Source: Candidatus Woesebacteria bacterium RBG_13_46_13 (GTDB lineage Bacteria > Patescibacteriota > Microgenomatia > UBA8517). Taken from it: a stretch of 64,000 bases of DNA. Within the stretch, counting starts at the first letter, position 1, and each line of letters starts with the position of its first letter. The translations under genes and the position numbers were made by a program. Shown here one piece after another: positions 16,936 through 64,000 of this stretch. The DNA is taken from assembly GCA_001791995.1 (NCBI GenBank), contig MGFR01000003.1:6170-70169 (forward strand). Reading direction: 5' to 3'. Below the pieces are notes generated by a model. The model searched no databases. It was given only the letters and a program-made list of their open reading frames with translations, and had not been told where the DNA came from.

Positions 16936-16938
16936 ATT

Positions 16939-18009: not shown

Positions 18010-18012
18010 TGA

Positions 18013-19218: not shown

Positions 19219-19297
19219 TGCCTTGACAGCCAATTGCTTAATAGACGATACTGGATTAGAAAGCGAGAGGGGGTGAAAAGTAATTAATACTGCTCAT

Positions 19298-19888: not shown

Positions 19889-19891
19889 TTC

Positions 19892-20674
19892 GTGGTTTTA
19901 ATAATATTTTTGCTGGGACTTGCATTCGGGTCCTTTGTGGGAGTTTTAACTTGGAGACTTCCGAGGGGAAAGCAATTTCTTCTCGGTCGCTCCATTTGTC
20001 CCCACTGTAAACATCAAATTGCCTGGTTTGACAATATTCCGCTTGTTTCTTTCCTGGCCTTAAAGGGAAGATGCAGACACTGTAGGGCCAGAATTTCACG
20101 GCGCTATCCGGCTGTTGAGCTTGCTTTGGGAGTGCTGTTTGTTCTTCTCTACCTTAGACTTTTATCCTGTCCGTCCCCAGAGGCGGTTTGTCTGATAAGA
20201 ACCACTTATGCTTTACCCGGAATACTCTTTTTATTTTTTATCCTGCTTCTTAATCTGGCTATTTTTGTGATCGATATCGAAAAAAGAATAATTCCCGACG
20301 AGCTGGTGTTTGCGGGTTTGGCTAGCTTAAGCATTCTTCTGGTTTTGGGTCCCCAGCATGCGTTCTATCTTCGTTTTTTCTCGGCATTTTTGGCAGCATT
20401 TTTACTGCTTACCTTAAACATTGCCACCAAAGGCAAAGGTATGGGCCTCGGGGACGTCAAATATGCCCTTTTGGGAGGTCTTTTTTTCGGCTGGCCCTTG
20501 ACCCTTGTCTGGCTTCTGACCGCTTTCTTGACAGGGGCTTTGGCCGCAATCATACTGATTTTGACGGGTAAGGCAGGTATGAAGGACAAGATTGCCTTCG
20601 GTCCTTTTATGGCAATCGCCTTAGTAATAGTGATGTTTTTCGGAGAAAGGATTTTAGGACTAATTTGGCTATGA
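19892..20674 (+). CDS. pilD: prepilin peptidase (A24 family)
   Basis: CPHC...CRHC zinc-binding motif. Polytopic, with a GTG start immediately after the pilin stop. Confidence 0.85.
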   Translation: MVLIIFLLGLAFGSFVGVLTWRLPRGKQFLLGRSICPHCKHQIAWFDNIPLVSFLALKGRCRHCRARISRRYPAVELALGVLFVLLYLRLLSCPSPEAVCLIRTTYALPGILFLFFILLLNLAIFVIDIEKRIIPDELVFAGLASLSILLVLGPQHAFYLRFFSAFLAAFLLLTLNIATKGKGMGLGDVKYALLGGLFFGWPLTLVWLLTAFLTGALAAIILILTGKAGMKDKIAFGPFMAIALVIVMFFGERILGLIWL

Positions 20675-20679
20675 GAAAA

Positions 20680-21899: not shown

Positions 21900-21923
21900 T
21901 TTGAGTATAGTGTATATAGGGAT

Positions 21924-23882: not shown

Positions 23883-23888
23883 CATGAG

Positions 23889-24860: not shown

Positions 24861-25357
24861 AAAAACAGATATCTGCCCGCGGGGTGAGCTTTATCGAGAT
24901 TTTGGTGGTTATTGCCATTTTTGCAATTTTGGGTGTTTTGGTCGGCAGAATTACCTTGATTACCCTTAGGGGTTCCAATAAAAGCGAGTCTTTGGGAAAG
25001 GTTAGGACCAACCTGGATTATTCGTTGGCCGTAATGGAGCGCCAGTTGAGAAATGCCGAAACCGCATCTCCCTGCAACAACACCGCAGTGACGACCATCA
25101 ATTATACCGATATCGATGGAATCCCAAGTTCCTTCTCCTGTGTCAATATCGGCCCTACGGGCTATATTGCCTCAAGCTCGGCAAGGCTGACCACCGATGA
25201 GATAAAAATAACCGCCTGTTCCTTTACCTGCTCCCCTGCCGCAGGCAGGGTTCCGCCGGCAGTGACGATTTCGCTGGAGGCAGCTGATGCCAAAACAACC
25301 GGAATAGAGGCTGCCAAAGTTACGGCAACCACCAAAATCTTTCTTAGAACTTATTAG
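24857..25357 (+). CDS. minor pilin (GspJ/PilW-like)
   Basis: ARG|VSFIEILVVIAIFAIL with Glu+5. YSLAVMERQLRNA block. ATGA overlap upstream. Confidence 0.6.
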   Translation: MKKQISARGVSFIEILVVIAIFAILGVLVGRITLITLRGSNKSESLGKVRTNLDYSLAVMERQLRNAETASPCNNTAVTTINYTDIDGIPSSFSCVNIGPTGYIASSSARLTTDEIKITACSFTCSPAAGRVPPAVTISLEAADAKTTGIEAAKVTATTKIFLRTY

Positions 25358-25406
25358 CAAGTTTTAAGATTGACCGGGGTATACTTGATTGCTAAACTGA
25401 TAACGT

Positions 25407-26309: not shown

Positions 26310-26310
26310 C

Positions 26311-27321: not shown

Positions 27322-27324
27322 GTT

Positions 27325-27855
27325 ATGGCCGCCATTAATCTTCTACCCAAAGATCTGTTGCCGAGCGCGGGGCTAATCAAAACCGCGAAACTTCTCAAAA
27401 ATCTTTTAACCTTGGGCTTTGGCATTTTTACGATAGTCCTTGTCGGTTTGGTTGCTTTTTTTGTCCTAAACTCGATTAGCCTGCGTTCCTCCACCGCCCG
27501 CCAGGAAGAATTGAAAAATTCCATCAAGGCCCTCGAGCAAACGGAGCAGGGACTGGTCTTGGTCAAGGATAGACTTACCAAAGTCAAGGAGGTATTGGCC
27601 AAAGATTCGGGAGCGGAAGAGGTGGATAACCTGGCCAAAGTTTCGTCTTTGACCACAGCCGGTGTGGATTTGACCGAAGCCGTTGTCTTTAAAGAAGAGT
27701 TGGATACGACCTTTAACGTTTCCGATGCCAGCGTTCTGACCAGTTTTATGGCCCAGATAATTGCCTCCGGGGACTACAAGAGAATCGATTTAAACTCCTT
27801 CAGTTTTAATCCCAGCGTGGGTTATCTTATCAGTCTGGCCTTTATCAGCAAATAA
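27325..27855 (+). CDS. pilN: PilN-like bitopic pilus alignment protein
   Basis: Short cytoplasmic INLLPKD motif, which binds PilM. Single TM, coiled coil. Position immediately after pilM. Confidence 0.6.
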   Translation: MAAINLLPKDLLPSAGLIKTAKLLKNLLTLGFGIFTIVLVGLVAFFVLNSISLRSSTARQEELKNSIKALEQTEQGLVLVKDRLTKVKEVLAKDSGAEEVDNLAKVSSLTTAGVDLTEAVVFKEELDTTFNVSDASVLTSFMAQIIASGDYKRIDLNSFSFNPSVGYLISLAFISK

Positions 27856-27856
27856 C

Positions 27857-28552
27857 ATGGCACAAAGCGATTTATCAAAAAAACTACTCTCCCCCAACGT
27901 CAAGGCCTTTATGGGGCCTGTCGGGCTTTTACTGCTTTTGGCAATTTTGAGTGTTTTTGCCTTCCGCTTCGGTTTTGCCAAGATCTCCGAACAAAGGCAG
28001 TCTGTGGCCACGGCCAGACAAAACGAGTCGGTCCTGTCCCAGAAAGAGTCTATCTTAAAGGATGTCCAATCCGGTGTGCCCTCTTACGTCAAGGCGGTTG
28101 CGGCGGCACTCCCTGAGAAAAACCCCAGCCTTTCGATGGTTTCGCAACTGAGAATATTAAGCGGAGAAAAGGGCCTATCTTTGGGAAATATTAAGGTCGG
28201 TTCGGAAATAGCGGCAGGTGGGGCTTCGATTTCCGAGGTCGACGTCACCTTCGGGATAGAAGGTCCGGCCGCAGAAATAGTTTCTTTTTTGGCAGCCGTC
28301 AAGGATCTTGCACCGGTCTCAACCATTGAAAAGGCCAAAATCAACAGATCCTCAATCGGTACCCGGGCCGATATTACCTTAAGAGTCTATAAATCGGAAT
28401 TTCCCCAGAAGTTACCATCGTTAACGGAGCCCGCCAGAGCCTTAACCGATGACGAGAAGACCACTCTCACCAAACTCTCGGCTTTAAGGCTGCCCATATT
28501 TTCGGAGCTGACCCCGCAAGGAGGAGCCGTGAGGGAAAATCCCTTCGAGTAA
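27857..28552 (+). CDS. pilO: PilO-like bitopic pilus alignment protein
   Basis: Single TM followed by a coiled coil and a C-terminal alpha/beta domain. Position after pilN. Confidence 0.5.
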   Translation: MAQSDLSKKLLSPNVKAFMGPVGLLLLLAILSVFAFRFGFAKISEQRQSVATARQNESVLSQKESILKDVQSGVPSYVKAVAAALPEKNPSLSMVSQLRILSGEKGLSLGNIKVGSEIAAGGASISEVDVTFGIEGPAAEIVSFLAAVKDLAPVSTIEKAKINRSSIGTRADITLRVYKSEFPQKLPSLTEPARALTDDEKTTLTKLSALRLPIFSELTPQGGAVRENPFE

Positions 28553-53786: not shown

Positions 53787-53829
53787 AGATTAAGTTTACA
53801 CCTTAATCTCAAGACACAAAACAGGAGGG

Positions 53830-53912
53830 TGCCGAGGAAGGGAGTCGAACCCCCACGTCCTTAAGGACACGTGGCCCTAAACCACGCGCGTCTGCCATTC
53901 CGCCACCTCGGC
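53830..53912 (-). tRNA. tRNA-Leu (anticodon TAG), type II long variable arm; CCA not encoded
   Basis: Hand fold: acceptor GCCGAGG/CCUCGGC, anticodon loop UUUAGGG, variable stem-loop UGUCCUUAAGGACGU, T-loop GGTTCGACTCC. Confidence 0.8.
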
Positions 53913-53920
53913 GCGGCTAT

Positions 53921-53955
53921 ATTATAACAAAAAGGGACCCCCTTTCGGGGGTCCC
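53921..53955 (-). terminator. intrinsic-terminator-like hairpin (9-bp GC stem, UUUC loop, U-tract) downstream of methyltransferase gene
   Basis: Plus-strand gggaccccc-tttc-gggggtccc. On the minus strand it is followed by UUUUUGUUAUAAU. It lies only 8 nt before the tRNA-Leu(TAG) 5' end. Confidence 0.45.
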
Positions 53956-54097
53956 AGGAAAAATTCCGACGCTCAGACCAGTAAACTGGCTTTGCCTCAG
54001 AATCTAGTAGGGACTATAACATAATACTCTAGGATTGTCAAGTGTAGAGGAAGGTGCGAAGATGCCTACATTAAGGGTTTTCTCTGACTACTAAAGG

Positions 54098-54856
54098 CTA
54101 TCCCCTTTTCCTGGCTAAGACAAAGACCGACGGTCCGAAATTAAACAAGGATAGGGGTTTTTGTAAATGCTTCTCGTAAGCCAAAAGCGTATAACTGGGA
54201 ACAAGTCTCTTGATAAAGGCACTTCTGATGTTTGATACCGAACGCTTTTCGACTATAGAAAAGCCGAAATGCTCGAGTTTCTCCAGGATGACATCGGGGT
54301 GGTAGTTGAGAAAATTGATCGAGTGCTGCCTGCGCGATTTTTTGCTACGCTTATCCGAAGGAAAAATATCAAAGCGGAAAGTCAGATTCCCCTTTAAGAA
54401 CTGAATCAGCGTGGCTTTAAGGTGCATCTTGTTGGGAAATTCCAGAATAAAATAACCGTTGGGCTTAACAAGTTTTTCGACCGCAGTTAAGGCCTTATCC
54501 AAATCCTCTATGTGGTGTAGCACCCTGACCATGATGACCAGATCGGCGCTTTGCGCCCTTAGCTTCTCATTGAGGTTTTCTACGCCGGAATGGATGATCC
54601 GTATATTTTTGAGCTGGGAGAATTCCTCTCTGGCGATTTTCAGCAGTTTGGAGGACGGATCGGTCAAGATTACCCTTTTGGCCCGGTAGAGATATGTCGG
54701 AACAAGTCTACCGAAACCCGCTCCGATTTCGATAATGGTGGAAATCCTGGGTATCCGTTCCAAAAAAGCCTTTAAGGCAATTATTTCCGAACCGTGCTCG
54801 TAATCCCTGCCTATCCAGTAGTTTGGGTAATCGTAGGTGTCATAATGCGCAGCCAT
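54098..54856 (-). CDS. class I SAM-dependent methyltransferase
   Basis: Motif I IIEIGAGFGRL and motif II region DLVIMVRVLHH. 252 aa. Substrate unknown. Confidence 0.7.
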   Translation of the reverse strand: MAAHYDTYDYPNYWIGRDYEHGSEIIALKAFLERIPRISTIIEIGAGFGRLVPTYLYRAKRVILTDPSSKLLKIAREEFSQLKNIRIIHSGVENLNEKLRAQSADLVIMVRVLHHIEDLDKALTAVEKLVKPNGYFILEFPNKMHLKATLIQFLKGNLTFRFDIFPSDKRSKKSRRQHSINFLNYHPDVILEKLEHFGFSIVEKRSVSNIRSAFIKRLVPSYTLLAYEKHLQKPLSLFNFGPSVFVLARKRG

Positions 54857-54899
54857 ATTGTTTTGAGGCGAAACTCGATTATACAGGAGAGTTCAAAAA

Positions 54900-55538
54900 C
54901 TACTCCATTTCGCTCATGAATTTATTTACTCCCGCAGCCCATGAGCCATTGGAAAGAGGAGTGTATTTACTCATAATATCCTCGATAGTTTCGTAGCCCT
55001 TGTTCAGGTATTCGTTTCTTATCCCTTGCGAGACCGTATCTATTCCTTCTTCGAAGGAGGTAAAGCCGAGAGTGCCCCGGCTGTGGATTCCCCAACCCCA
55101 GCAATTGTAGCTTCCGGGAGGTATTATTTTACAGAGGTTTGATTCCTGTTGGGCGATGGCGGTAATTAAACGATAATCGAGCTGGTATCTATCGGCTGTG
55201 GCGACAATAAAGTCCGAATAAGGGACCAAAGGAGAGGCGTAGCTTGCCAGATACTGGCGGACTATTTCGCTTCTGGCATCGGCAGTATTGGGATCTCCCG
55301 AGATTTCCGGAAGAGTAGTCGGAAGAGATGCAAAAACTTTGACTCCCGATTGCGGATACAAAATATAGTTGGATTCCATCAGATTCGGATTTTCTGCCTT
55401 ACCGTTCTTGGAGAGAGAAAGCAAAGAGAATAGGCTGGTGGCCAAAGTAAGCGGGGCAACGGTAAAGAATATCGCAATCAAAAAAAGGTTTTTCCAAAAG
55501 GAAAAATCTTCCTTGAAGGTAAAGTTTTCTTGATGCAT
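54900..55538 (-). CDS. membrane-anchored lysozyme-like (putative peptidoglycan glycosidase/transglycosylase) protein
   Basis: N-terminal TM. LITAIAQQESN...CWGWGI resembles the catalytic Glu-Ser and Gly-rich motifs of lysozyme-like/SLT/glucosaminidase folds. Confidence 0.4.
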   Translation of the reverse strand: MHQENFTFKEDFSFWKNLFLIAIFFTVAPLTLATSLFSLLSLSKNGKAENPNLMESNYILYPQSGVKVFASLPTTLPEISGDPNTADARSEIVRQYLASYASPLVPYSDFIVATADRYQLDYRLITAIAQQESNLCKIIPPGSYNCWGWGIHSRGTLGFTSFEEGIDTVSQGIRNEYLNKGYETIEDIMSKYTPLSNGSWAAGVNKFMSEME

Positions 55539-55604
55539 ATCGGGCAGAGTATGCTGCCAAAGTCAGGATGCCACAAATGACCAGGCAAAGTCAAGAAATT
55601 TTAG

Positions 55605-55676
55605 TGAGCCTGGGAGGAATCGAACCTCCAACCGCTTCCTTAAGAGGGAATCGCTCTACCGTTGAGCTACAGGCCC
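55605..55676 (-). tRNA. tRNA-Lys (anticodon CTT); CCA not encoded
   Basis: Hand fold: acceptor GGGCCUG/CAGGCUC, anticodon loop CUCUUAA, T-loop GGTTCGATTCC. The 5' end overlaps the upstream CDS stop by 10 nt. Confidence 0.75.
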
Positions 55677-57064
55677 TTGATTAGCTTCAATATTGTAGCA
55701 AAGAAACCGTCTATTTTCATTCTTGGAGGGGAAACGATAAACAATTGGAAAAATTCAGGGGAAGAAATTGCATTACCGCCTTTTGTCAGAGTCAAGGATT
55801 TTAGCTGGACACCGGACTCTTCGGGGGCCAGTATCTTGAAAGAGATGAAGCCTATAGAGCCGGGTTCAAGGGTCTCGAAGGAGGGAGATATTCCTAATGC
55901 AGATTCTTCTTGCGAAATTAAACCTATATCACTTTTGTTCCAGATAGACTGGCCGGTATTCTTTACAAGTAAGGTGCCGGAGATTATGGAACCTGTTAAG
56001 CGGAAGGGTTGAACGATAACGCTTTCGATTTCGGCCTTTTCTTCCTGGACAGGTTCCCCCTTGACCTTATTTAGGCTTGCTACCTCAAAATAGAAAGGGT
56101 AAAAAAATCCTTCTTTGTCTTTCCAGGAAAAAGTGTCGAAAGGAGGCTCGTTATAGGAAAGCAGAAACGGGGTAACCGCGATAATTTTTTTGTCCGTCCA
56201 GACTTGGGTAAAGGCAAAAGAAAGCCTTTCTCCGATTATATCGGTACTTATGGCTTTTTTCTTTTCGCCGTTCATGGCATGGGCCCAACCGGTTTCGGTA
56301 ATAAATACGGGTAATTCTTTGGCTATCCCCAGCTCCTTTAAAAGAGAAAGTTCCCAGTCATATGTTCTAACGGAGCCCCTTCCGTATCCGTTTTGGCTAC
56401 CGGAAAAATCGGGGTTGGGGTAGGAATGCGACGCCCAGCCGTCGACGTTTGCAAAGACTTGCGGCTCTTTGGCCAGCATTTTTTTGATAAAAGTAGCTTC
56501 GTCCATGGTATCTTTTGAATTCCCGGCGGAGGCATCTAGTCCTGCGGGTAAGACGAAAAAGTCGGAGGAGGCACCCTTTAGTTTTGAGGAAAATTCCCTC
56601 AGATAAGTCGCATACTCTTCCGGATTTATCTCACCACCCCACTCCTTGGTGTGATTGGGTTCGTTGGCGATAACCACATAGCGGTTTTTGACAACCCAAT
56701 TTAGAGAGTTTAAAAAACTCACCCAGCCGTCAATTTCGCCCAGACTTGGCTTTTCCCAAATATCTCCCAAGGGTCTGGTGGCAATTCTTACAATTGGTAT
56801 CAGATGCAGCCGTCGGGCTTTGTTAAAAGTATCCTGCCATTTATCCTTGTTTTTGTCGGTTTGCTGGATAACCAGAGTTACGTAACCCCAGTCTCCTCCG
56901 CTGGAATTGACCAGTTTGGCCGCATCCTCCAAATCGTTGGAATCGATAATGTGGATTCCGAAACGGTTATTGGCAACCGAGGCAAGATCGTAAGCAGCTG
57001 CTATTCTTGAGCCAAAAAGCAAAAAACAGATTGAAACAAATAATGAGGTTAGTAGTTTTTTCAT
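55667..57064 (-). CDS. secreted GH-A clan (GH5-like) glycoside hydrolase
   Basis: Signal peptide. VIANEPN (acid/base Glu of the NEP motif) and FITETGWA (nucleophile Glu), spaced as in TIM-barrel GH5-type enzymes. C-terminal beta-rich domain. Confidence 0.6.
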   Translation of the reverse strand: MKKLLTSLFVSICFLLFGSRIAAAYDLASVANNRFGIHIIDSNDLEDAAKLVNSSGGDWGYVTLVIQQTDKNKDKWQDTFNKARRLHLIPIVRIATRPLGDIWEKPSLGEIDGWVSFLNSLNWVVKNRYVVIANEPNHTKEWGGEINPEEYATYLREFSSKLKGASSDFFVLPAGLDASAGNSKDTMDEATFIKKMLAKEPQVFANVDGWASHSYPNPDFSGSQNGYGRGSVRTYDWELSLLKELGIAKELPVFITETGWAHAMNGEKKKAISTDIIGERLSFAFTQVWTDKKIIAVTPFLLSYNEPPFDTFSWKDKEGFFYPFYFEVASLNKVKGEPVQEEKAEIESVIVQPFRLTGSIISGTLLVKNTGQSIWNKSDIGLISQEESALGISPSFETLEPGSIGFISFKILAPEESGVQLKSLTLTKGGNAISSPEFFQLFIVSPPRMKIDGFFATILKLIKGL

Positions 57065-57096
57065 CCAGAATAATCTTAGCAGAAGCGAATTATTTG

Positions 57097-57170
57097 TGCC
57101 CCCGGCGCGACTCGAACGCGCAACCCTATCGTTAGAACCGATGCGCTCTATCCAATTGAGCTACGGGGGC
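57097..57170 (-). tRNA. tRNA-Arg (anticodon TCT); CCA not encoded
   Basis: Hand fold: acceptor GCCCCCG/CGGGGGC, anticodon loop GUUCUAA, T-loop GTTCGAGTC. Confidence 0.75.
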
Positions 57171-57174
57171 TCGG

Positions 57175-57246
57175 AGCGGGCGAAGGGAATTGAACCCTCT
57201 GTCTCTTCCTTGGCAAGGAAGCATTTTACCGGTAAACTACGCCCGC
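57175..57246 (-). tRNA. tRNA-Gly (anticodon GCC); CCA not encoded
   Basis: Hand fold: acceptor GCGGGCG/CGCCCGC, anticodon stem CUUCC/GGAAG with loop UUGCCAA, T-loop GGTTCAATTCC. Confidence 0.8.
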
Positions 57247-57433
57247 ACTGTGCTGAAGGCGCTATCAGAGTCAAGCACCCCAATTTGATTCCAGCAATTC
57301 AATAATACTATAAACGAGGCTGAAATTCTAATTACACAACAGAAAGTTCTAAAAGCTTACCAAGCGGAGCATATAATTATACTTAAACCATATTAAAATT
57401 GTGCGAATAATTGACATAGTTTGTTGTATATAA

Positions 57434-57462
57434 TTGACTTTTTGATGATAAGTGGGTATATT
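57434..57462 (+). promoter_or_regulatory. near-consensus sigma70 promoter TTGACT-17-TATATT with AT-rich upstream region
   Basis: -35 TTGACT at 57434-57439, 17-nt spacer, -10 TATATT at 57457-57462. AT-rich UP-like tract at 57370-57430. Confidence 0.45.
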
Positions 57463-57468
57463 CGAGGT

Positions 57469-57560
57469 GTGCTGGTGGGCGAAAGCCCCTCTTCGGCTAA
57501 GGTATATCTAAGCTGAGAGCCAGCACACTAGGAGCGTCCGCGAGGACGCTTCTTGTTTCT
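57469..57560 (+). ncRNA. candidate small structured RNA (about 92 nt), function unknown
   Basis: Bounded by the promoter above and an intrinsic terminator. Predicted closing helix GUGUGCUGG/CCAGCACAC encloses a GGGC-GAAA-GCCC hairpin and a UCGGCUAAG/CUAAGCUGA hairpin. No plus-strand ORF in the transcript. Confidence 0.4.
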
Positions 57561-57944
57561 GGAACGTTTATTGTTAGGCATTACACTTACAAATTCAACC
57601 TTTCCCGTTCCTATTTTCTCAAGAACGACCCTCATTTCTGTATCTTTTGCTATTTCGCTAACCAGGCCGTATTGGATAACAGATTTCTTTTTACCCTTTA
57701 TTTCTTTTGTTGTGTTTCTAGCTTTAAACTCCTTACTTTCTCTTATTACTCTAGGTGCATGAGGTAAACACATTAACTTGAGATATTGTTCGTCAATCGT
57801 TCGTGGCCTTCGATTTTTCTTGTACAGAAGGTGATTGAAGCCATTCGATGTAAAGAAAACGGTATCTCCCAAGGCTGGACAATAAATTGAAACAATGCTG
57901 TTATAGAAAGCACGCCTTCGAAGTTTTAGAATTTCAATATTCAT
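57528..57944 (-). CDS. hypothetical basic protein (138 aa) in AT-rich segment
   Basis: ORF in a low-GC stretch between tRNA genes. Lys/Arg-rich C-terminus. The ORF-track start at 57998 would overlap tRNA-Phe, so the internal ATG at 57944 is used. No SD. Confidence 0.25.
   Translation of the reverse strand: MNIEILKLRRRAFYNSIVSIYCPALGDTVFFTSNGFNHLLYKKNRRPRTIDEQYLKLMCLPHAPRVIRESKEFKARNTTKEIKGKKKSVIQYGLVSEIAKDTEMRVVLEKIGTGKVEFVSVMPNNKRSRNKKRPRGRS
57533..57560 (+). terminator. rho-independent terminator (7-bp stem AGCGUCC/GGACGCU, GCGA tetraloop, UCUUGUUUCU tract)
   Basis: Read directly from the sequence. The U-tract occurs only on the plus strand. Confidence 0.55.
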
Positions 57945-57971
57945 TAAGCGAAAGCTAACAGAAAATTTCTG

Positions 57972-58044
57972 TGCCGAGAGTGTGAGTCGAACACACATCT
58001 GACGCTCTTCAGGCGCCCGCCGTGACCACCTTGGCTATCTCGGC
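57972..58044 (-). tRNA. tRNA-Phe (anticodon GAA); CCA not encoded
   Basis: Hand fold: acceptor GCCGAGA/UCUCGGC, anticodon stem GGCGC/GCGUC with loop CUGAAGA, T-loop TGTTCGACTCA. Confidence 0.7.
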
Positions 58045-58056
58045 AAATTACTCCTG

Positions 58057-58130
58057 TGGTCGCTGAGGGTCTCGAACCCCCGACCTTGCGGATGTAAACC
58101 GCACGCTCTAACCAACTGAGCTAAGCGACC
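58057..58130 (-). tRNA. tRNA-Val (anticodon TAC); CCA not encoded
   Basis: Hand fold: acceptor GGUCGCU/AGCGACC, anticodon loop UUUACAU, T-loop GGTTCGAGACC. Confidence 0.8.
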
Positions 58131-58215
58131 TGGTGCCGGGAAGAGGACTCGAACCTCCACACCTTGCGGTACACGCACCTCAAGCGTGCCTGTCTACCAG
58201 TTTCAGCATCCCGGC
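58131..58215 (-). tRNA. tRNA-Leu (anticodon GAG), type II; CCA encoded
   Basis: Acceptor GCCGGGA/UCCCGGC, anticodon loop UUGAGGU, long variable arm. Directly abuts tRNA-Val with 0-nt spacing. Confidence 0.8.
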
Positions 58216-58247
58216 ATGGTGCAGATAAGCCAAGCTTGTCTGCTCTG

Positions 58248-58333
58248 TGCAGATGAGAGGACTTGAACCTCTACGGACGTTTAAAGTCCATACGGCCCTG
58301 AACCGTACGCGTCTGCCATTCCGCCACATCTGC
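58248..58333 (-). tRNA. tRNA-Leu (anticodon CAG), type II; CCA not encoded
   Basis: Acceptor GCAGAUG/CAUCUGC, anticodon loop UUCAGGG, variable arm GGACUUUAAACGUCC. Confidence 0.8.
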
Positions 58334-58362
58334 AAATAACCTGAATATTATATCAAAAAGGG

Positions 58363-59442
58363 CTATATAAATCTTACTTGGAGTTCTGGACTAACTTTGG
58401 TGGTTAGAGGTACCTCCTGACCGGGAAAATGTGCGGCCGGTCCCCAGATTTTGGCCAGCTTTTTATCAGAGGCAAAATCTTCTCCTATCTCTTCGGCGAC
58501 CTGGGCCAGTGTTTTTCCTTCTTTGGTAATCATGGGGTTTGCCGTTCCCGGCTCCTCATCCGCCTTGACCAGATAAATCTTAAGAAGCCTAAGCCTCTGC
58601 CAAATTTGAGTCAAAAGCTCATCTATTCCCTCTCCGGTTTCTGCGCTGATTGCTATGAAAATGTCTTTCGGCAGTCTATTAATTTTTTTGTCCTGGTCGA
58701 TTTTATTGATTACGAAGATAGCGTCAAGATAGGCCCTACTTGGAGAAAAAGCGTCAAGCAGCCGCTCCATTGAAAAATTCTCTTTTAAGACGATATCAGC
58801 ATTTTTGATGCCGTATTCCTTAGCTATCTCCTTGATGGTCTCTTTGGACAGCTGTTGGGTTATGTTCGACTGAACGTTTAGGCCCCCTTCGGGCTTTTTG
58901 TCGATACGAATCCCAGGTTGGGTTTTGTTTATCCTTATTCCTGCCTCCTCGAGTTCCTTCTGAAGTGTTTGGGTTTGGTCGGCCCTCTCGACGTCGGTCA
59001 TGATCAGCAATAGATCCGCACCGCGAGCAACGGAGAGGACTTCTTTGCCTCTTCCTTTACCGTGCCTTGCGCCTTCGATCAGCCCCGGTACGTCCATAAT
59101 TTGAATATAGGCGTCGTTGAATTTAAGCATTCCGGGAATTACCGAGACCGTGGTAAAAGCATATGGGGCTACCTTGCTTTCGGCGTTGGTCAGTCGATTG
59201 ATTAAAGTGGATTTTCCGGCAGAAGGAGGACCTATAAGTACAACCGTAGCGTCACCCTCTTTCCTGACGGCATAACCTCCTCCGCCCCCTCCGTGGGCAC
59301 GGATGACCCCTTCGAATTGTCTGTCTTTTAGACGCGAAAGTCTGGCTCTTAACTTTCCGATATGGTGCTCCGTCCCTTTGTGGTAGGGGGTTTCTCTTAT
59401 CTCCTTTTCGATATCCTCAATTTGTTGGGTAAAATCGGCCAT
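58363..59442 (-). CDS. DRG/Rbg1-family (Obg-like, TGS-containing) GTPase
   Basis: Near-colinear with eukaryotic/archaeal DRG1: EIEKEI..T..NK.TEHH.G.L.A.L, the GGGGGG...GDA stretch, G1 GPPSAGKSTL, G2 FTT, G3 DVPGLIEGA..GKGRG, NKID, and C-terminal TGS block LVKADEEPG...IWG. Confidence 0.8.
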   Translation of the reverse strand: MADFTQQIEDIEKEIRETPYHKGTEHHIGKLRARLSRLKDRQFEGVIRAHGGGGGGYAVRKEGDATVVLIGPPSAGKSTLINRLTNAESKVAPYAFTTVSVIPGMLKFNDAYIQIMDVPGLIEGARHGKGRGKEVLSVARGADLLLIMTDVERADQTQTLQKELEEAGIRINKTQPGIRIDKKPEGGLNVQSNITQQLSKETIKEIAKEYGIKNADIVLKENFSMERLLDAFSPSRAYLDAIFVINKIDQDKKINRLPKDIFIAISAETGEGIDELLTQIWQRLRLLKIYLVKADEEPGTANPMITKEGKTLAQVAEEIGEDFASDKKLAKIWGPAAHFPGQEVPLTTKVSPELQVRFI

Positions 59443-59467
59443 TGTTGTATAATTATATCTGATTTTA

Positions 59468-59539
59468 GCCTCTGTGGCTTAACGGATAGAGCATCGGTCT
59501 TCGGAACCGAGGGTGGAGGTTCGATTCCTCCCAGAGGCA
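59468..59539 (+). tRNA. tRNA-Arg (anticodon TCG); CCA not encoded
   Basis: Hand fold: acceptor GCCUCUG/CAGAGGC, anticodon stem UCGGU/ACCGA with loop CUUCGGA, T-loop GGTTCGATTCC. Confidence 0.75.
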
Positions 59540-59588
59540 CATTATATCTACTCCGAAGAAAATGTGGAGTTTCCCCAACGAAACGGGA

Positions 59589-60032
59589 TTATCTTGCGGG
59601 CTTGATAAAGGTTTTTACCCTGGCAACGCTAAAGCCGATAAATAGGCCCAAAAGTAAAGCCCAGCGGTAATTGACTATCCCCAACCCGGTAAAGGGTGCA
59701 AATCTGGCCACGGTCCAAACGGCTGCGCTGCCGATTAGGATGTAAAAAACCAGAGAGCCGAATCTGCTTTCGGGATGAAGGCCCCTTACCACAACCAAAT
59801 CCTTAATGGCCCAGTTTAGGAAACTGATCCAAAATCCCGAATAGATAATGGCGTCAATTAGCCCGAACTTGTAGTTTCCCAAGACGACGCTATCCGGAAA
59901 AATGATGTGGGCCAAATAAACAAAGAAAGACGTGATAAGCCAGGATAGTAAAAAGACAAAATGCTCGCTCAGATAATTCACCCCCTTTTCACCTTGAGTA
60001 TCGTATTTGGTGAAAAGTTTGTCAATGAGCAT
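59589..60032 (-). CDS. hypothetical polytopic membrane protein (147 aa)
   Basis: Four predicted TM helices. No motif recognised. Confidence 0.4.
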   Translation of the reverse strand: MLIDKLFTKYDTQGEKGVNYLSEHFVFLLSWLITSFFVYLAHIIFPDSVVLGNYKFGLIDAIIYSGFWISFLNWAIKDLVVVRGLHPESRFGSLVFYILIGSAAVWTVARFAPFTGLGIVNYRWALLLGLFIGFSVARVKTFIKPAR

Positions 60033-60060
60033 GCAGGCATAGTAAAATATGCATAGCTTA

Positions 60061-60145
60061 GCCGAGGTGGCGGAACGGTAGACGCACAGGACTTAAAATC
60101 CTGAGACCCATTTGGGTCGTGGGGGTTCGACTCCCTTCCTCGGCA
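60061..60145 (+). tRNA. tRNA-Leu (anticodon TAA), type II; CCA not encoded
   Basis: Acceptor GCCGAGG/CCUCGGC, anticodon loop CUUAAAA, variable arm GACCCAUUUGGGUCG. Confidence 0.8.
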
Positions 60146-60146
60146 C

Positions 60147-60221
60147 CGGGGAGTAGCTCAGCTGGTTTAGAGTGCGCGCTTTGGGAGCGCGAGGTCGCCG
60201 GTTCGAATCCGGCCTCCCCGA
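60147..60221 (+). tRNA. tRNA-Pro (anticodon TGG); CCA not encoded
   Basis: Acceptor CGGGGAG/CUCCCCG, anticodon stem CGCGC/GCGCG with loop UUUGGGA, T-loop GGTTCGAATCC. Only 1 nt after tRNA-Leu. Confidence 0.8.
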
Positions 60222-60222
60222 C

Positions 60223-60690
60223 TTACCTGGAGACTTGAATTGTGGCGCTGTTCTCCGCGTTACAGGCCTTAACGGTAACTATACTATTTGAATCCGAAAC
60301 TACCGAATAGTAGGTAGTGCTGGCAGAGCCCCCACCGGGATCAACGGGAATAGACTTCAAATACTTGGCCAAGGTCACGGAAAGATCCAAACAGGCAGCG
60401 GCCGCTCCGGTACATTGAGATCCTCCCCCTGAGCCGCAGGTTCCGAGCTGCTTTTCGGTTGAGGTAACGCCGGTTGGAAGGCTTCCGTTATTGTCGATGA
60501 TGTATTCATGAACCGCGGTCAAGACAGAATTGACGTCATTCCACCGACGGGAGTTTCTGGCATCCGCAAATCTTTGTACGGGATTTAGGGCCACGATTAC
60601 GATTGAAGCCAAAATAGCGATGATGGCAATAACCAAGAGTAATTCAATGAGTGTAAAACCGCTTTTGTTAGAAGATGGAGCGTTGGGCAT
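60223..60690 (-). CDS. type IV pilin (second PilA-like paralogue)
   Basis: KSG|FTLIELLLVIAIIAILASI with Glu+5. NPVQRFADARNSRRWNDVNSVLTAVHEY parallels the first pilin (19298..19888). Cys pair. Confidence 0.75.
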   Translation of the reverse strand: MPNAPSSNKSGFTLIELLLVIAIIAILASIVIVALNPVQRFADARNSRRWNDVNSVLTAVHEYIIDNNGSLPTGVTSTEKQLGTCGSGGGSQCTGAAAACLDLSVTLAKYLKSIPVDPGGGSASTTYYSVVSDSNSIVTVKACNAENSATIQVSR

Positions 60691-60735
60691 GTCTTTAATT
60701 ACTACAGCACATAGCCGATTTTAAGTCAAGGCCGC

Positions 60736-61107
60736 TCAAATCTCTTTCCAAAAAACCGGTGTGATCGTTGTCGCCCTGGTTGTTATAACCCGTATCGATT
60801 TGCCGTAGCCGTTGACCGTTGCCGAGACCGTAAAGGTCCAGTCAAAGCCGGTATGCGAATCCACGACCAGAGAGCAGATTCCCTCGGGCAGGGTTATTGT
60901 CGAAGGAAGGCTGTTGTTGGTATTGATGGAGTAAATCGCATCCTCAATGCAGGCTTCAACACGATTAATAGTTTCTTCCCTTCTTCTTCCGGATAGAGAT
61001 TTTTGGGCTTCGGAGATTGATGTTAGGGCCAAAGTTACACCTATAACCAAAAGAACAGCCGAAATAATCAGAACGCTTGAAAACGCAATGTAACCCTTTT
61101 GTCTCAT
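60736..61107 (-). CDS. minor-pilin-like protein with degenerate prepilin motif
   Basis: QKGYIAFSSVLIISAVLLVIGV hydrophobic N-terminus without Glu+5. Start taken at ATG 61107 to avoid a 71-nt overlap with the upstream gene; the ORF track gives 61179. Confidence 0.4.
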   Translation of the reverse strand: MRQKGYIAFSSVLIISAVLLVIGVTLALTSISEAQKSLSGRRREETINRVEACIEDAIYSINTNNSLPSTITLPEGICSLVVDSHTGFDWTFTVSATVNGYGKSIRVITTRATTITPVFWKEI

Positions 61108-61108
61108 T

Positions 61109-61633
61109 TTAATTAGATCTAACCTCCGCTGCCGAAATAAACGTCTGAGAACGATCAAATTCGCTCCTGGTAGAGGCATTAACCGAGTCGATGGTTAAGG
61201 AAAACCTGATATTTTTGGTCAGAGATCCGCTGGTTAGATTGGTAAAGGTCAGGCCGCTCACGCTAACCAAGTTTGAGGTCAGGGCTACGTCATTTGAGAG
61301 CGCGGCGCAGACAGGTGAGCCTCCTCCCCAACCGATTCTTAAAACTCCTGACGCAAGATAAATTCTGGTAGGATTTCTGGTAGCGTCGGAATTAGACATA
61401 CAAATAGAAGTGGCCGAGACGGAATTAATGTCGGAGGCATTTCTTATTTCAAAGAGAATCCTTTTTGAAGCCAGTCTAAGATTCTGGGTAACTTCTGTGT
61501 AAACGTTTGATTTGATCCTACCGTAAATAATGTTCCAGCCAAACTGGACAGCACCATAAACAAAAATTGTAACCAGAGCGATATAGACGATCAGTTCGAT
61601 AAAGGTAAAACCGTTGTTTATATTTTTTCTCAT
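61109..61633 (-). CDS. pseudopilin / minor pilin
   Basis: NNG|FTFIELIVYIALVTIFV with Glu+5. 174 aa. Confidence 0.65.
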   Translation of the reverse strand: MRKNINNGFTFIELIVYIALVTIFVYGAVQFGWNIIYGRIKSNVYTEVTQNLRLASKRILFEIRNASDINSVSATSICMSNSDATRNPTRIYLASGVLRIGWGGGSPVCAALSNDVALTSNLVSVSGLTFTNLTSGSLTKNIRFSLTIDSVNASTRSEFDRSQTFISAAEVRSN

Positions 61634-61634
61634 C

Positions 61635-63065
61635 TTATAAGGGCTTAAAACCGGCTAGTTCTTGTGCATTGGCCTCTGTTGCTCCGTATGCCCTGTCGTT
61701 AAACGCAGAGTAAGCGACGCCGTTAATGTTGTTCGTGTAATCAAACGATCCGAAAAGGGCTGGAGTAGAAAAAGTACCGATTGTCACGATTTGAAATTCG
61801 GAAGAGGCGTTATTGGTCCCCAGAAACACATAGTTGTTGGCGTTACCGAGCGCTATGTCGTTAATATTTGCCCCGGCCAGGTAGGTTCCGGAAAGCGTAG
61901 GCGCCGAGGGTGTTGAGACGCTTATCGTGTCCAATTCTCCCCCTTGTCTAGATATGATAATTGCTAAGTCAAATCCGGAGATTGAAGTTGCATCGGAACC
62001 TCCGGTAATGTCTAAAGACCCTACCAAGGAGGGCGAGGCAGGCGTTGAAACGCCTACCACTTGAAGCTCCTGGGTATTGGAGGAGGAAGCAACGAAGGCA
62101 TTAGATCCCAAAACAACAATCTCGTTGGCGTCGGCACCCAAGTCTAATGAACCGGTCAGAGAAGGGGCTGAAGGCGTACTGATATCCGTGACAATAAATT
62201 CATCATCCGCGCTGCTGTCCCTGACCAGATAGGCGTAGTTTCCGATAACAAACACGCCGTTGGCGTTGGCGGCCCCTGCAGCATCAAACGTGCCGACAGA
62301 ACTGGGGGTGGAGGGTGTACAAACGTCTATAATCTGCAATTCTGTGGCGTCCGCTTCGTTGGTAATGTAGGCGTATCTGCCCCAGACGTAGATGTTGGTG
62401 GGGTTACCCGAAAGAGTTAAAGATGAAGTCAAGCTGGGGGTAGAGGTCGAAATATCAAATATGGCAAAGTTCGGCGAGCCGGTATTCCTGGTCAGGTAAG
62501 CATAATGTCCCTGAACTTGGATTTTGTCTCCATTGTCGTTGCCAGCAAGGTCAACACTCGACTCCTGGGAAGGGCTGGCCCAGTTACCGACGGCTGTTTT
62601 TTTCCAATTCGTATAGTAAGTCTCGAAACTAACGGTATTTGCTCTGGCAATGGTGAAATTCCAACTGACGGTCGAAGTTATCTTCTTGGCGTTTAAATCC
62701 AGAACGTTGGCGCAGCCCGAAAGAACCGGATTATTCGTGGGAATATCCCGGTAGACGTCGGCAACACTGATTTGTCTGGTATAGCTACCTTTGGTGTCCG
62801 AAGAGCCCGAAAAAGCCCAAGTACCTCCACCGCTGGTAGCCCCATGGTTACCGTTGGTTAACAAAGACCAGGACTGGTTCTTGATGGAGCGTGCGGCTTC
62901 TATCCCCTCCTGGGCGTAAAGGGTTGCGTCACTTTCGTTGTCTCCGAGCCTATTTATAGAGAATATTTGCAGAATGGCGGTTACCGCGGAGACGGCGACA
63001 ACCACGAATATTCCGACTGCGACAATTACTTCAATGATTGCGAAGCCTGATTTAGATTTTACCAT
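61635..63065 (-). CDS. prepilin-leader protein fused to LVIVD-repeat beta-propeller (candidate pilus adhesin)
   Basis: N-terminus KSG|FAIIEVIVAVGIFVVVA with Glu+5. The C-terminal about 330 aa carries at least 7 tandem repeats of about 40 aa: [YAY(L/I/V)..x10-15..(E/N)(L/F)xI(I/V)D(I/V)S(T)P(S)xPSLxGS]. Confidence 0.7.
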   Translation of the reverse strand: MVKSKSGFAIIEVIVAVGIFVVVAVSAVTAILQIFSINRLGDNESDATLYAQEGIEAARSIKNQSWSLLTNGNHGATSGGGTWAFSGSSDTKGSYTRQISVADVYRDIPTNNPVLSGCANVLDLNAKKITSTVSWNFTIARANTVSFETYYTNWKKTAVGNWASPSQESSVDLAGNDNGDKIQVQGHYAYLTRNTGSPNFAIFDISTSTPSLTSSLTLSGNPTNIYVWGRYAYITNEADATELQIIDVCTPSTPSSVGTFDAAGAANANGVFVIGNYAYLVRDSSADDEFIVTDISTPSAPSLTGSLDLGADANEIVVLGSNAFVASSSNTQELQVVGVSTPASPSLVGSLDITGGSDATSISGFDLAIIISRQGGELDTISVSTPSAPTLSGTYLAGANINDIALGNANNYVFLGTNNASSEFQIVTIGTFSTPALFGSFDYTNNINGVAYSAFNDRAYGATEANAQELAGFKPL

Positions 63066-63066
63066 G

Positions 63067-63507
63067 TCAATTAATATCCAATTCCCCCGCGCTATTTAAT
63101 ATTAAGTTTTTGGTCCCGGTCGAGGCCGAAATTGTAATTGTCAGGGTAGAAGAGGGTTCGCCGCGGTCTGTCGAAAAGGTCACGTTGGAAAATCCGGAAA
63201 TGCCAACGCTGGAGGGATAACTAAAATCCTCCGAGAACGACGGAGAACCACAGGTTCCTCTAAAAAGGCGGATGTTTGTTCCGTCTAAACAGGCACCCCA
63301 GGCAACATTGTTTTTGCCGTCCATGGAATAGCTTTGGGCTTTCTTGAGGGTGCTGACAACTTTATCGACGGTGGCGTCAAGATTGGTTTGGATGAAAAAT
63401 CTGGCTAAAAAAGGAGATGTCGTTGCGGCCAGGATTGATATTAAGGCCACAACCATTAAAAGCTCTATAAAGGTAACACCGTTTTCCGGATAAGAGTTTT
63501 TCAGCAT
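63067..63507 (-). CDS. pseudopilin (GspH/FimT-like)
   Basis: ENG|VTFIELLMVVALISILAA with Glu+5. 146 aa. Confidence 0.65.
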   Translation of the reverse strand: MLKNSYPENGVTFIELLMVVALISILAATTSPFLARFFIQTNLDATVDKVVSTLKKAQSYSMDGKNNVAWGACLDGTNIRLFRGTCGSPSFSEDFSYPSSVGISGFSNVTFSTDRGEPSSTLTITISASTGTKNLILNSAGELDIN

Positions 63508-63511
63508 CTGG

Positions 63512-64000
63512 CTATCTGATACTTCCGGTAAGCTGGTAGATGGGACTGATTATTGCGATTGCAATTAAGGCCACGATAAGCCCCACGACAATCAGCAGAA
63601 TAGGCTCCAAAACGGTGGTCAGGTTTTTAGTAACATTGTCCAGCTCTTCGTCATAATAATCGGCCAAGTATAAAAGCGAGTCGGCGAGTTTACCGCTTTT
63701 TTCCCCTACCGATATCATTTTCGTAACCAGAACGGGGAAAAGACGATCTTTGGAGAGGGATTCGGTCAAGGATTTCCCCTGCTCAACCCCGGCTTGAGCT
63801 TGGTTGACTAATTTTTGAAAAGACTGGTTGGATAAAGTTTTCGCCGTAACCGCTAGGGCCTGAGATATCGGAACTCCGCTTTGCAGGAGAGTTCCCAGGT
63901 TTCTGCAGAATCGGGTAATCTGAAAATTCTTGGCGATTGCGCCCACAAAAGGAAGTCTAATAACTATCTGCCCCCAAACGGATTTAAGAGGAGTCAGGAT
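63512..64000 (-). CDS. GspF/PilC-family platform protein, C-terminal part (5'-truncated by window edge)
   Basis: The 144-aa ORF-track segment (63512..63946) is in frame to the window edge. T2SSF repeat with the SGKL motif region ISVGEKSGKLADSL and terminal TM helix. Confidence 0.7.
   Translation of the reverse strand: MLTPLKSVWGQIVIRLPFVGAIAKNFQITRFCRNLGTLLQSGVPISQALAVTAKTLSNQSFQKLVNQAQAGVEQGKSLTESLSKDRLFPVLVTKMISVGEKSGKLADSLLYLADYYDEELDNVTKNLTTVLEPILLIVVGLIVALIAIAIISPIYQLTGSIR

What the first reader, a model, noticed from the sequence alone, without database searches (positions are those of the whole stretch)
60223..64000. Second pilus locus encoding a prepilin-leader::LVIVD beta-propeller fusion (candidate pilus-tip adhesin)
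On the minus strand a PilC paralogue (truncated by the window edge) is followed by pseudopilins. Among them is a 476-aa protein that starts with a class III signal (KSG|FAIIEVIVAV, Glu+5) and then carries at least seven LVIVD-like repeats (YAY...IIDVSTPSxPSLxGS) predicted to form a beta-propeller. A second major-pilin paralogue ends the locus. Fusing a pilin leader to a propeller would display it on a pilus. This is a plausible host- or surface-binding device for an episymbiont.
Basis: partly seen in the sequence, partly recalled or inferred. Interest (0 to 1): 0.7.

Follow-up and report, generated by a model that had tools for sequence, protein, structure and literature searches.

The report
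Pilus tip pilin carrying a beta-propeller
A tiny Woesebacteria-like (CPR) bacterium has a second, compact pilus operon in which one tip-type minor pilin carries a seven-bladed LVIVD propeller, most likely a binding head shown at the pilus tip; the design is real but of a kind already catalogued.

Summary

The same carrier pilin sits at the same place in a conserved operon (PilB-PilC-pilin-carrier-pilin-cap-major pilin) in many CPR lineages, where its C-terminal cargo differs. LVIVD is the commonest cargo. Others are lectin, Kelch or unannotated repeat modules, or none, and proteins range from 134 to 2116 aa.

The best explanation is a tip-displayed binding module. The ligand is unknown.

Pilins with LVIVD modules were already counted in the 2021 survey of modular pilins. 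A propeller-bearing minor pilin needed for host binding is known in Saccharibacteria. I therefore rate this a new member of a known kind, of moderate interest.

The parts
63512..64000 (-). C-terminal 163 codons of a second PilC-type platform protein (cut by the window edge)
   Evidence: Pfam T2SSF E 5.8e-31. 61-63% identical to the PilC of syntenic L001/L003, against 38% to the window's first PilC.
63067..63507 (-). Minor pilin 1 (146 aa), G|VTFIE; H-like by position, with weak similarity to the GspH-domain pilin of locus 1
   Evidence: N_methyl E 1.5e-4. 25% identity, E 1.6e-4, to the GspH-domain pilin at 23889-24389. A relative was found just upstream of the carrier in 43 of the 85 loci.
61635..63065 (-). 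Modular minor pilin (476 aa): class III leader + GspI-like pilin domain + seven-bladed LVIVD propeller
62586..63065 (-). Carrier pilin module (residues 1-160): leader MVKSKSG|, Glu+5, alpha1 helix 6-64, beta-sheet 72-151, then a short lower-confidence linker
61644..62570 (-). Seven-bladed LVIVD beta-propeller (residues 166-474)
61109..61633 (-). Minor pilin 3 (174 aa), G|FTFIE; J-like by position only
   Evidence: N_methyl E 9.2e-5, and N_methyl in 17/17 orthologues, with no J-specific match.
60736..61107 (-). Minor pilin 4 (123 aa from Met25 of the listed ORF): G|YIAFS, no Glu5, two invariant Cys; candidate cap (K-like) subunit
   Evidence: 123 aa in L001/L003. Alignment A4. Weak ComGG and PilX_N hints, E about 0.03 in 2 of 19 members each.
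60223..60690 (-). Major-pilin-type subunit (155 aa), G|FTLIE; separated by a 45-nt spacer from the minor pilin genes
   Evidence: N_methyl E 1.4e-8. 89% identical to L001/L003. One to five tandem copies in related loci.
19892..20674 (+). PilD prepilin peptidase/methylase in the first T4P locus; the only one seen in the window and the presumed processing enzyme for these pilins
   Evidence: Pfam A24_N_bact 2.2e-32 and Peptidase_A24 4.9e-14.

Best explanation
The region is the distal part of a compact second type IV filament operon in a Woesebacteria-like CPR bacterium. By synteny the whole operon reads: sensor kinase, response regulator(s), PilB-like ATPase, PilC-like platform, four minor pilins, one major pilin.

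The four minor pilins are proposed to form the tip complex that starts filament assembly. Filaments grow from tip to base, and the tip complex is capped by the subunit without Glu5. This is established knowledge for type IV pili and type II secretion (PMC10191384).

The second minor pilin is a GspI-like pilin whose C-terminus continues, through a linker of about 12 residues, into a seven-bladed LVIVD propeller. After cleavage by PilD (encoded in the first locus) it would enter the tip complex through its pilin domain, so the propeller would sit at the far end of the filament. There it most likely binds a ligand on a host cell or surface.

Across CPR the same carrier pilin, at the same operon position, bears different cargo modules, so this position acts as the exchangeable 'head' of the pilus.

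Shown here: gene content, motifs, folds, and conservation of the operon and of the carrier. Inferred: processing, tip location, binding function, and the nature of the ligand.
For: - Pilin signals and operon.
- Leader Gly and Glu+5 at least 90% conserved in 61 relatives.
- The fourth pilin lacks Glu5, with G|YIALS conserved in 19 orthologues.
- PilD is in the window.
- PilB and PilC lie upstream in the syntenic relatives.
- Among 80 loci from species-representative genomes, PilC is upstream in 70 and PilB in 62, and all six genes are recognisable in 23. The carrier ORF ranges from 138 to 2002 aa.
- Cargo on the carrier: LVIVD in 37 of 106 representatives, plus Laminin_G_3, Kelch, CBM96, CBM_4_9, DUF2341 and others. 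Many are binding modules.
- Precedents: modular pilins as tip adhesins (PMC8179133), and TM7x PilX2, a propeller-bearing minor pilin of T4P-2 needed for host binding (PMC11623550).
Against: - No ligand or function is known for any LVIVD domain, and nothing here identifies a binding site.
- The propeller is 78% identical to its closest relatives. That is more conserved than the neighbouring GTPase (70-74%) and PilC (61-63%). This argues against a fast-evolving host-range determinant at this scale and would also fit a structural or priming role.
- The operon has no PilT and no PilM/N/O of its own, so it may make a short Com-like or pseudopilus-like fibre rather than a long retractile pilus.
- The H, J and K assignments rest on gene order, absence of Glu5 and weak matches only.
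- The window protein's N_methyl score is below Pfam's cut-off.
- The CPR lifestyle of this organism is inferred from taxonomy alone.
Confidence: 0.6

Rival explanations
1. Com-like DNA-uptake filament. The operon has the same parts list as comGA-GG (ATPase, platform, one major and four minor pilins, peptidase elsewhere). The propeller would be a tip DNA receptor, as ComZ is in Thermus.
For: - Gene content matches the Com column of the table in PMC10191384.
- No PilT or PilMNO in the operon.
- Weak ComGG hints for the 123-aa pilin.
Against: - The alternative cargos at the same position are lectin, CBM and Kelch-type modules, not DNA-binding ones.
- In TM7x, T4P-2 mutants kept normal competence (PMC11623550).
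- The ComGG hint is not significant.
- Similarity to YncE is generic to seven-bladed propellers (10-12% identity).
Confidence: 0.1
2. Priming or plug role. The propeller does for this system what the PilY1 C-terminal propeller does in diderm T4aP: it completes the tip complex and is needed mainly to start assembly, not to bind a target.
For: - Strong purifying selection relative to neighbouring genes.
- PilY1 with minor pilins primes assembly in Myxococcus (cited in PMC11623550).
- Position in the tip set.
Against: - Orthologous carriers with no cargo at all exist in otherwise complete operons (L028 about 208 aa, L065 about 151 aa), so cargo is not needed for assembly in general.
- Cargo types are unrelated folds.
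- TM7x lacking PilX2 still made T4P-2 filaments.
Confidence: 0.12
3. Bindosome-like surface display. The pilin domain anchors the propeller in a short envelope-spanning pseudopilus or at the membrane, as in the class III signal peptide sugar-binding proteins of Sulfolobus. It would capture nutrients rather than attach cells.
For: - A compact ATPase + platform + small pilins set without retraction or alignment proteins.
- CPR are auxotrophic scavengers, and the Sulfolobus bindosome is a precedent (both from my own knowledge, not checked here).
Against: - A dedicated, well-conserved major pilin, often in tandem copies, ends the operon, which fits a real fibre.
- There is only one cargo-bearing pilin per operon, not a set of binding proteins.
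- No transporter genes are linked.
Confidence: 0.1
4. The propeller is an enzyme (lyase, lactonase or hydrolase type) delivered on the filament to act on the host envelope.
For: - Peptidase-bearing modular pilins exist (PMC8179133).
- One relative's cargo matches the Lactonase family weakly.
Against: - No catalytic family matched the window protein.
- The conserved residues are the repeated structural ones (G-x-YAY, E-L, P-x-x-P) in every blade.
- Structural matches are at 8-14% identity and are generic.
Confidence: 0.05

Closest known systems
Modular type IV pilins (Raynaud et al. 2021, PMC8179133), e.g. S. sanguinis PilB (pilin + vWA) and PilC (pilin + lectin)
   Same: An N-terminal pilin module is joined by a short linker to a bulky module not specific to pili, predicted to sit at the tip and to bind ligands. 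Their Dataset S1 already lists IPR012902 followed by one to thirteen IPR013211 (LVIVD) units in 30 proteins. The identifier is confirmed as LVIVD in PMC10210494. Their text mentions an 860-aa Falkowbacteria example.
   Different: No LVIVD pilin has been studied. The survey did not describe the structure, the I-type nature of the carrier, the operon, or the exchange of cargo on one orthologous carrier. In S. sanguinis the I-like subunit (PilA) is the non-modular one.
PilX2 of the T4P-2 thin pilus of Nanosynbacter lyticus TM7x (Grossman et al. 2024, PMC11623550)
   Same: A CPR bacterium with two pilus systems. The second has its own PilB and PilC. Its largest minor pilin carries a C-terminal seven-bladed propeller. 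Deleting it halves host binding without abolishing filaments.
   Different: PilX2's propeller is built of RCC1 repeats, not LVIVD, and no RCC1 family matched here. PilX2 is reported to lack a predicted PilD signal, whereas this protein has a canonical one. In TM7x the pilins and the machinery are in separate loci and the system has its own PilM/N/O. Homology of the carrier domains was not tested.
GspI/GspJ/GspK (T2SS) and PilH/I/J/K or FimU/PilV/PilW/PilX (T4aP) tip complexes
   Different: There is no sequence-level match to the Pfam or PDB families of I, J or K. In T2SS the enlarged subunit is K, with an inserted alpha domain. Here the enlarged subunit is the I-position one and the K-position one is tiny (123 aa).
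PilY1/PilC tip adhesin of diderm T4aP
   Same: A seven-bladed propeller presented at the pilus tip through the minor-pilin complex.
   Different: PilY1 is not a pilin and uses its own propeller family (IPR008707) as the docking module, with the effector modules N-terminal to it. Here the propeller is the cargo and a pilin domain does the docking. No PilY1 family matched.
LVIVD repeat proteins (Adindla et al. 2004, PMC2447325; Pfam PF08309)
   Same: Repeats of about 40 residues typical of archaeal and bacterial cell-surface proteins. Blades here are 37-40 residues.
   Different: Those proteins are usually exported by ordinary signal peptides and anchored otherwise. Here the domain is mounted on a pilin.

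Membership tests
Type IV pilin (class III signal peptide, Pfam N_methyl PF07963) | Short basic leader ending in Gly, followed by a hydrophobic stretch of about 20 residues with Glu at +5 | tested here: met
   MVKSKSG|FAIIEVIVAVGIFVVVAV. Gly7 and Glu12 are at least 90% conserved in 61 relatives.
Type IV pilin (class III signal peptide, Pfam N_methyl PF07963) | Score above Pfam's curated cut-off for N_methyl | tested here: not met
   16.1 bits against a 21.2 cut-off, E 0.0083. 42 of 106 family representatives match N_methyl at E<=0.001. The other three Glu5 pilins of the operon pass.
Type IV pilin (class III signal peptide, Pfam N_methyl PF07963) | Pilin fold: long N-terminal helix packed on an antiparallel sheet | tested here: met
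Type IV pilin (class III signal peptide, Pfam N_methyl PF07963) | Cleavage and N-methylation by a prepilin peptidase, and incorporation in a filament | not testable with these tools
   PilD is encoded at 19892-20674. Processing itself needs experiment.
LVIVD repeat / beta-propeller (PF08309) | Significant match to the repeat profile in tandem copies | tested here: met
   E 1.5e-23, 82.3 bits against a 20.2 cut-off, four stretches. Seven units are visible by alignment of the blades.
LVIVD repeat / beta-propeller (PF08309) | Closed propeller of four-stranded blades | tested here: met
Modular pilins (sensu Raynaud et al. 2021) | N-terminal pilin module plus a C-terminal domain not specific to pilus biology, joined by a short linker | tested here: met
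   The same InterPro architecture is listed in their Dataset S1.
Modular pilins (sensu Raynaud et al. 2021) | The extra module has a direct role in a pilus-mediated function | not testable with these tools
   Needs binding or mutant assays.
Core minor pilin I (GspI / PilV / PilI) | GspI-type fold | tested here: met
Core minor pilin I (GspI / PilV / PilI) | Sequence membership in the I family | tested here: not met
   No I-family Pfam hit. A profile of 21 carriers finds no pseudopilin in the PDB beyond the N-terminal helix.
Core minor pilin I (GspI / PilV / PilI) | Set of four minor pilin genes in H-I-J-K order with a Glu5-less K | tested here: inconclusive
   The order and the Glu5-less fourth gene fit. 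The H assignment rests on a 25% identity hit, E 1.6e-4. J has no specific support. K has only E about 0.03 hints.
Core minor pilin I (GspI / PilV / PilI) | Forms a complex with J and K | not testable with these tools
   No multimer prediction was available.
PilY1/PilC tip adhesin | Non-pilin protein with the PilY1-type C-terminal propeller (IPR008707) | tested here: not met
   The protein is a pilin, and no PilY1 family matched. It is a functional analogue only.
TM7x PilX2-type minor pilin | RCC1-repeat seven-bladed propeller on a minor pilin | tested here: not met
   It is a seven-bladed propeller on a minor pilin, but the repeats are LVIVD and no RCC1 family matched at E<=1.
Com (ComG) competence pilus | ATPase, platform, one major and four minor pilins; ComG family matches; role in DNA uptake | tested here: inconclusive
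   The parts list agrees. Only weak ComGG hints were found. Function is untestable here.

The most novel reading that the evidence does not exclude
The I-position minor pilin of this conserved CPR operon is a universal 'socket'. It is an orthologous carrier domain, with at least about 1100 sequence clusters, onto which lineages have grafted unrelated tip modules: LVIVD propellers most often, also lectins, Kelch, CBMs, large unannotated repeat modules, or nothing. On this reading the module sets which host or surface a CPR cell can attach to. Module type would then predict host or ligand class, and module swaps would underlie host switching across the radiation. This has not, to my knowledge, been described as such.
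Probability: 0.3. Interest if true: 0.7.

Novelty: new member of a known kind. Interest (0 to 1): 0.45.

Why it matters
How ultrasmall CPR bacteria find and hold their hosts is largely unknown. The only genetic evidence comes from one oral Saccharibacterium. This locus shows that a Woesebacteria-like organism has the same general solution, a second pilus with a propeller-bearing minor pilin, but built from a different repeat family.

The carrier pilin and its operon are conserved across much of the radiation while the cargo changes. That gives a simple sequence-based handle: find the carrier and read its C-terminus. With it, candidate attachment modules can be catalogued in thousands of uncultured genomes and chosen for binding tests.

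It would also give the LVIVD repeat, which has no known function, a first defined biological setting.

Tried and rejected
- An exact-sequence look-up of the 476-aa protein found nothing on record. I used its 79-80% relatives instead.
A 16-sequence alignment worked. Its two search patterns both lie in the pilin module, so the 80 loci are a sample of carriers, not of LVIVD proteins, and the proportions of cargo types are biased.
- Profile searches of the carrier, the 174-aa and the 123-aa pilin families against PDB sequences gave nothing beyond the N-terminal helix. Only structure comparison placed the carrier.
- Pfam scans of the 123-aa and 174-aa families gave no significant specific family.
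- I looked for evidence of propeller/carrier shuffling within the LVIVD subgroup by comparing identities. Among distant members the correlation was weak (-0.20). I do not regard this as proof of exchange.
- The promoter and terminator scan was no better than shuffled sequence.
- I considered that the operon might belong to non-CPR bacteria, because several records are labelled Gammaproteobacteria, Pseudomonadales, Vitreimonas or Bdellovibrionales. I could not check these labels. The named, independently binned hits are all CPR, so I treat the odd labels as doubtful.
- I rejected 'PilY1 homologue' and 'RCC1 propeller' because the family tests were not met.


Full report
**The observation.** The minus strand of 60223-64000 carries six tightly packed genes.
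- The C-terminal 163 codons of a PilC-type platform protein run off the window edge (Pfam T2SSF, E 5.8e-31).
- Next come pilins of 146, 476 and 174 aa.
- A fifth gene is listed as a 147-aa ORF. Its product is 123 aa in the closest relatives, so it most likely starts at its Met25 (61107).
- After a 45-nt spacer comes a 155-aa pilin.
- The gaps between the first five genes are 1-4 nt.
- Four pilins have a canonical class III signal: G|VTFIE, G|FAIIE, G|FTFIE, G|FTLIE. The 123-aa protein reads G|YIAFS and has no Glu5.
- The 476-aa protein matches Pfam LVIVD at E 1.5e-23. N_methyl scores below its cut-off (16.1 against 21.2 bits).
- A complete type IV pilus cluster (PilB, PilT, PilC, pilin, PilD, several minor pilins, PilM, PilN-like, PilO) lies at 15169-28552, so 'second locus' is correct.

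**Structure of the 476-aa protein.** I used an alignment of 61 relatives. AlphaFold2 gave a confident model, with mean pLDDT 92.6 and pTM 0.85.
- It has a helix at 6-64 and a sheet at 72-151.
- A short stretch of lower confidence follows at about 152-165.
- Then come 28 strands that make exactly seven four-stranded blades of 37-40 residues. Each blade has the pattern SL.GSL.L.G....I.V.G.YAYV......ELQIID.

**It is a whole pilin, not only a leader.** Residues 1-155 are conserved as a unit (AQEGIEAARSI, W83, YTR95-97, W135, TYxTNWKK).
- Modelled alone, this region gives pLDDT 84.9.
- There is no sequence-level match to those families.

**The other pilins.**
- The 146-aa pilin resembles the GspH-domain pilin of the first locus only weakly (25% identity, E 1.6e-4).
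- The 174-aa pilin has no specific assignment.
- The 123-aa family has an invariant Gly, no Glu5, two invariant Cys, and only non-significant ComGG and PilX_N hints.
- The arrangement thus mirrors the H-I-J-K order, with a Glu5-less last member. Only the I-type fold and the missing Glu5 are directly supported.

**Relatives and context.** The full-length protein has 265 hits. Those named by a source are all CPR: Parcubacteria, Moraniibacteriota, Gracilibacteria, Falkowbacteria and Dojkabacteria. They have about 40% identity over the whole length, at lengths of 450-490 aa.
- In contigs with 79-80% relatives (L001, L003) and in a complete Moraniibacteriota genome (L004, 43%) the gene order is the same: PilB-like ATPase (MshEN + T2SSE), PilC, small pilin, LVIVD pilin, two small pilins, major pilin.
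- In L001 and L003 this is preceded by a PAS histidine kinase and two receiver-only response regulators.
- None of these operons has PilT, PilD or PilM/N/O of its own. In the window those genes are in the first locus.
- GyrB places the window close to Candidatus Woesebacteria (79% identity to named genomes).

**The carrier and its changing cargo.** A scan of one genome per species, seeded by two motifs in the pilin module, returned 80 loci.
- PilC lies upstream in 70 and PilB in 62.
- Relatives of the 174-aa pilin lie downstream in 51, and of the 155-aa pilin in 56.
- All six genes are recognisable in 23.
- The carrier ORF ranges from 138 to 2002 aa. Ten are under 220 aa and have no cargo, twelve are 1000 aa or more, and 19 carry LVIVD.
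- Examples of other cargo:
  - Laminin_G_3 lectin in L020.
  - Tryptophan-rich repeat modules of about 430 aa with no Pfam match, in Woesebacteria and others (L016, L018, L024, L025, L027).
  - A weak lactonase-type propeller match in L048.
  - SpaA_2 plus LVIVD in P0109.
  - A 2018-aa multi-propeller LVIVD protein in L032.
- A filter-free search with residues 1-160 against 1.84 billion cluster representatives found 1099 proteins at E<=1e-10. The match was always at the N-terminus, in proteins of 134-2116 aa.
- Of the 106 best, 37 have LVIVD and 5 have Laminin_G_3. Others have Kelch, DUF2341, disaggregatase repeats, CBM96, CBM_4_9 or DUF4082. About half have no annotated cargo.
- Both samples are biased towards relatives of the window's carrier, so the proportions are indicative only.

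**Mechanism.** Established knowledge of type IV filaments holds that the core minor pilins form a complex that starts assembly. That complex stays at the tip because fibres grow from tip to base, and it is capped by the subunit lacking Glu5 (PMC10191384).
- Applied here, the I-type carrier would place the propeller at the distal end of a fibre made of the 155-aa pilin.
- The fibre would be driven by the operon's own PilB and PilC and processed by the PilD of the first locus.
- Many of the alternative cargos are binding modules, so a binding role for the propeller is the most economical reading.
- The closest tested precedent is PilX2 of TM7x. It is the largest minor pilin of the second (thin) pilus and has a seven-bladed propeller.
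- Its loss lowers host binding to the level of the major-pilin mutant while filaments are still made (PMC11623550).
- What is shown here is anatomy and conservation. Processing, tip location and binding are inferred.

**Points against, and rivals.**
- Between the window and L001/L003 the propeller (78%), carrier (81-85%) and major pilin (89%) are more conserved than the adjacent GTPase (70-74%) and PilC (61-63%). This is strong purifying selection rather than rapid diversification. It fits a conserved ligand, but equally a structural role.
- The parts list equals that of the ComG operon, so a DNA-uptake fibre cannot be excluded. The lectin-type cargos elsewhere and the normal competence of TM7x T4P-2 mutants argue against it.
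- A PilY1-like priming role is weakened by cargo-free carriers in otherwise complete operons.
- A bindosome-like nutrient-capture device or an enzyme head remain minor possibilities.

**Novelty.**
- The concept of modular pilins was set out in 2021. The supplementary table of that paper lists N_methyl followed by one to thirteen IPR013211 units in 30 proteins.
- IPR013211 is the LVIVD repeat. The text of that paper mentions a Falkowbacteria example.
- A search of the held literature found one paper that combines Patescibacteria, pilin and propeller (the TM7x study). It found none that discusses LVIVD pilins.
- The protein is therefore a new, uncharacterised member of a known kind.
- What may be new:
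  - The carrier is an I-type core minor pilin at a fixed operon position across CPR.
  - LVIVD is its commonest cargo.
  - The cargo is exchangeable.
- The TM7x paper only remarks that pilin C-termini seem to be diversifying.

**Verdict.** The finding is real and correctly described, and its interpretation is supported as far as sequence and structure prediction can go. It is of moderate interest (0.45). It is not surprising to a pilus specialist, but it is a useful entry point to host-attachment determinants in uncultured CPR bacteria.

Noticed in passing
L001:4599-6843; L003:4581-6825; 39 of 56 related loci: A receiver-only response regulator gene ends less than 600 nt upstream of the PilB-like ATPase in 39 of 56 loci that have enough upstream sequence. 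It often comes with a PAS histidine kinase. This suggests the second pilus is under two-component (PilH/CheY-like) control. The window ends before this region.
   Followed up: partly
L016:3560-5270, L018, L024, L025, L027, L037, L039, L044 (carrier ORFs of about 600 aa): In Woesebacteria and related lineages the same carrier pilin bears a tryptophan-rich repeat module of about 430 aa (motifs such as YR.WNGS.WS). It has no Pfam match. It is possibly an undescribed propeller family.
   Followed up: no
window 58363-64000 compared with L001 and L003: The pilins, including the propeller, are more conserved between these genomes (67-89%) than the adjacent GTPase (70-74%) and PilC (61-63%). This is unusual for surface-exposed proteins.
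   Followed up: partly
L054:10682-13266, L049, L079, L080: There are tandem arrays of up to five matches to the major-pilin gene downstream of the minor pilins in some lineages. They could be a reservoir for pilin variation. Some are split matches and may be fragments.
   Followed up: no
window 60061-60222 and 53828-60222: Thirteen tRNA genes lie in the window, most of them between 53.8 and 60.2 kb. The stop codon of the major pilin (60223) abuts the 3' end of a convergent tRNA-Pro (60147-60222). tRNA-Leu and tRNA-Pro are themselves directly adjacent. Relative to L001/L003, about 780 nt have been inserted between the pilin operon and the GTPase, holding three tRNAs and a 147-aa membrane protein.
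   Followed up: partly
window 12496-14457 (GyrB) and its relatives P0267, P0268, P0299, P0325: Several close GyrB relatives (79-89% identity) are 790-1091 aa and carry an intein domain (PF14890). The window's GyrB (653 aa) has none.
   Followed up: no
L006-L009, L012, L015, L018, L019, L031, L038, L059 (record titles): Many loci with this typically CPR operon come from third-party MAG records labelled Gammaproteobacteria, Pseudomonadales, Vitreimonas or Bdellovibrionales. One of them is a 1.4-Mb contig. The labels look doubtful but were not checked.
   Followed up: no
window 10217-12451: A 744-aa membrane H+-pyrophosphatase (Pfam H_PPase, E 4.6e-229) lies next to gyrB in this small-genome organism.
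   Followed up: no
window 60691-60735: The 45-nt spacer before the major pilin gene contains TTGACT, then 17 nt, then TGTAGT. This could be an internal promoter for the abundant subunit. The consensus scan did not list it, because its rule requires A at position 2 of the second hexamer.
   Followed up: no
L032:8001-14060: A 2018-aa protein in a MAG labelled Saccharibacteria has the same carrier pilin followed by many LVIVD-like units, enough for several propellers in series. It is the extreme of the cargo range.
   Followed up: no
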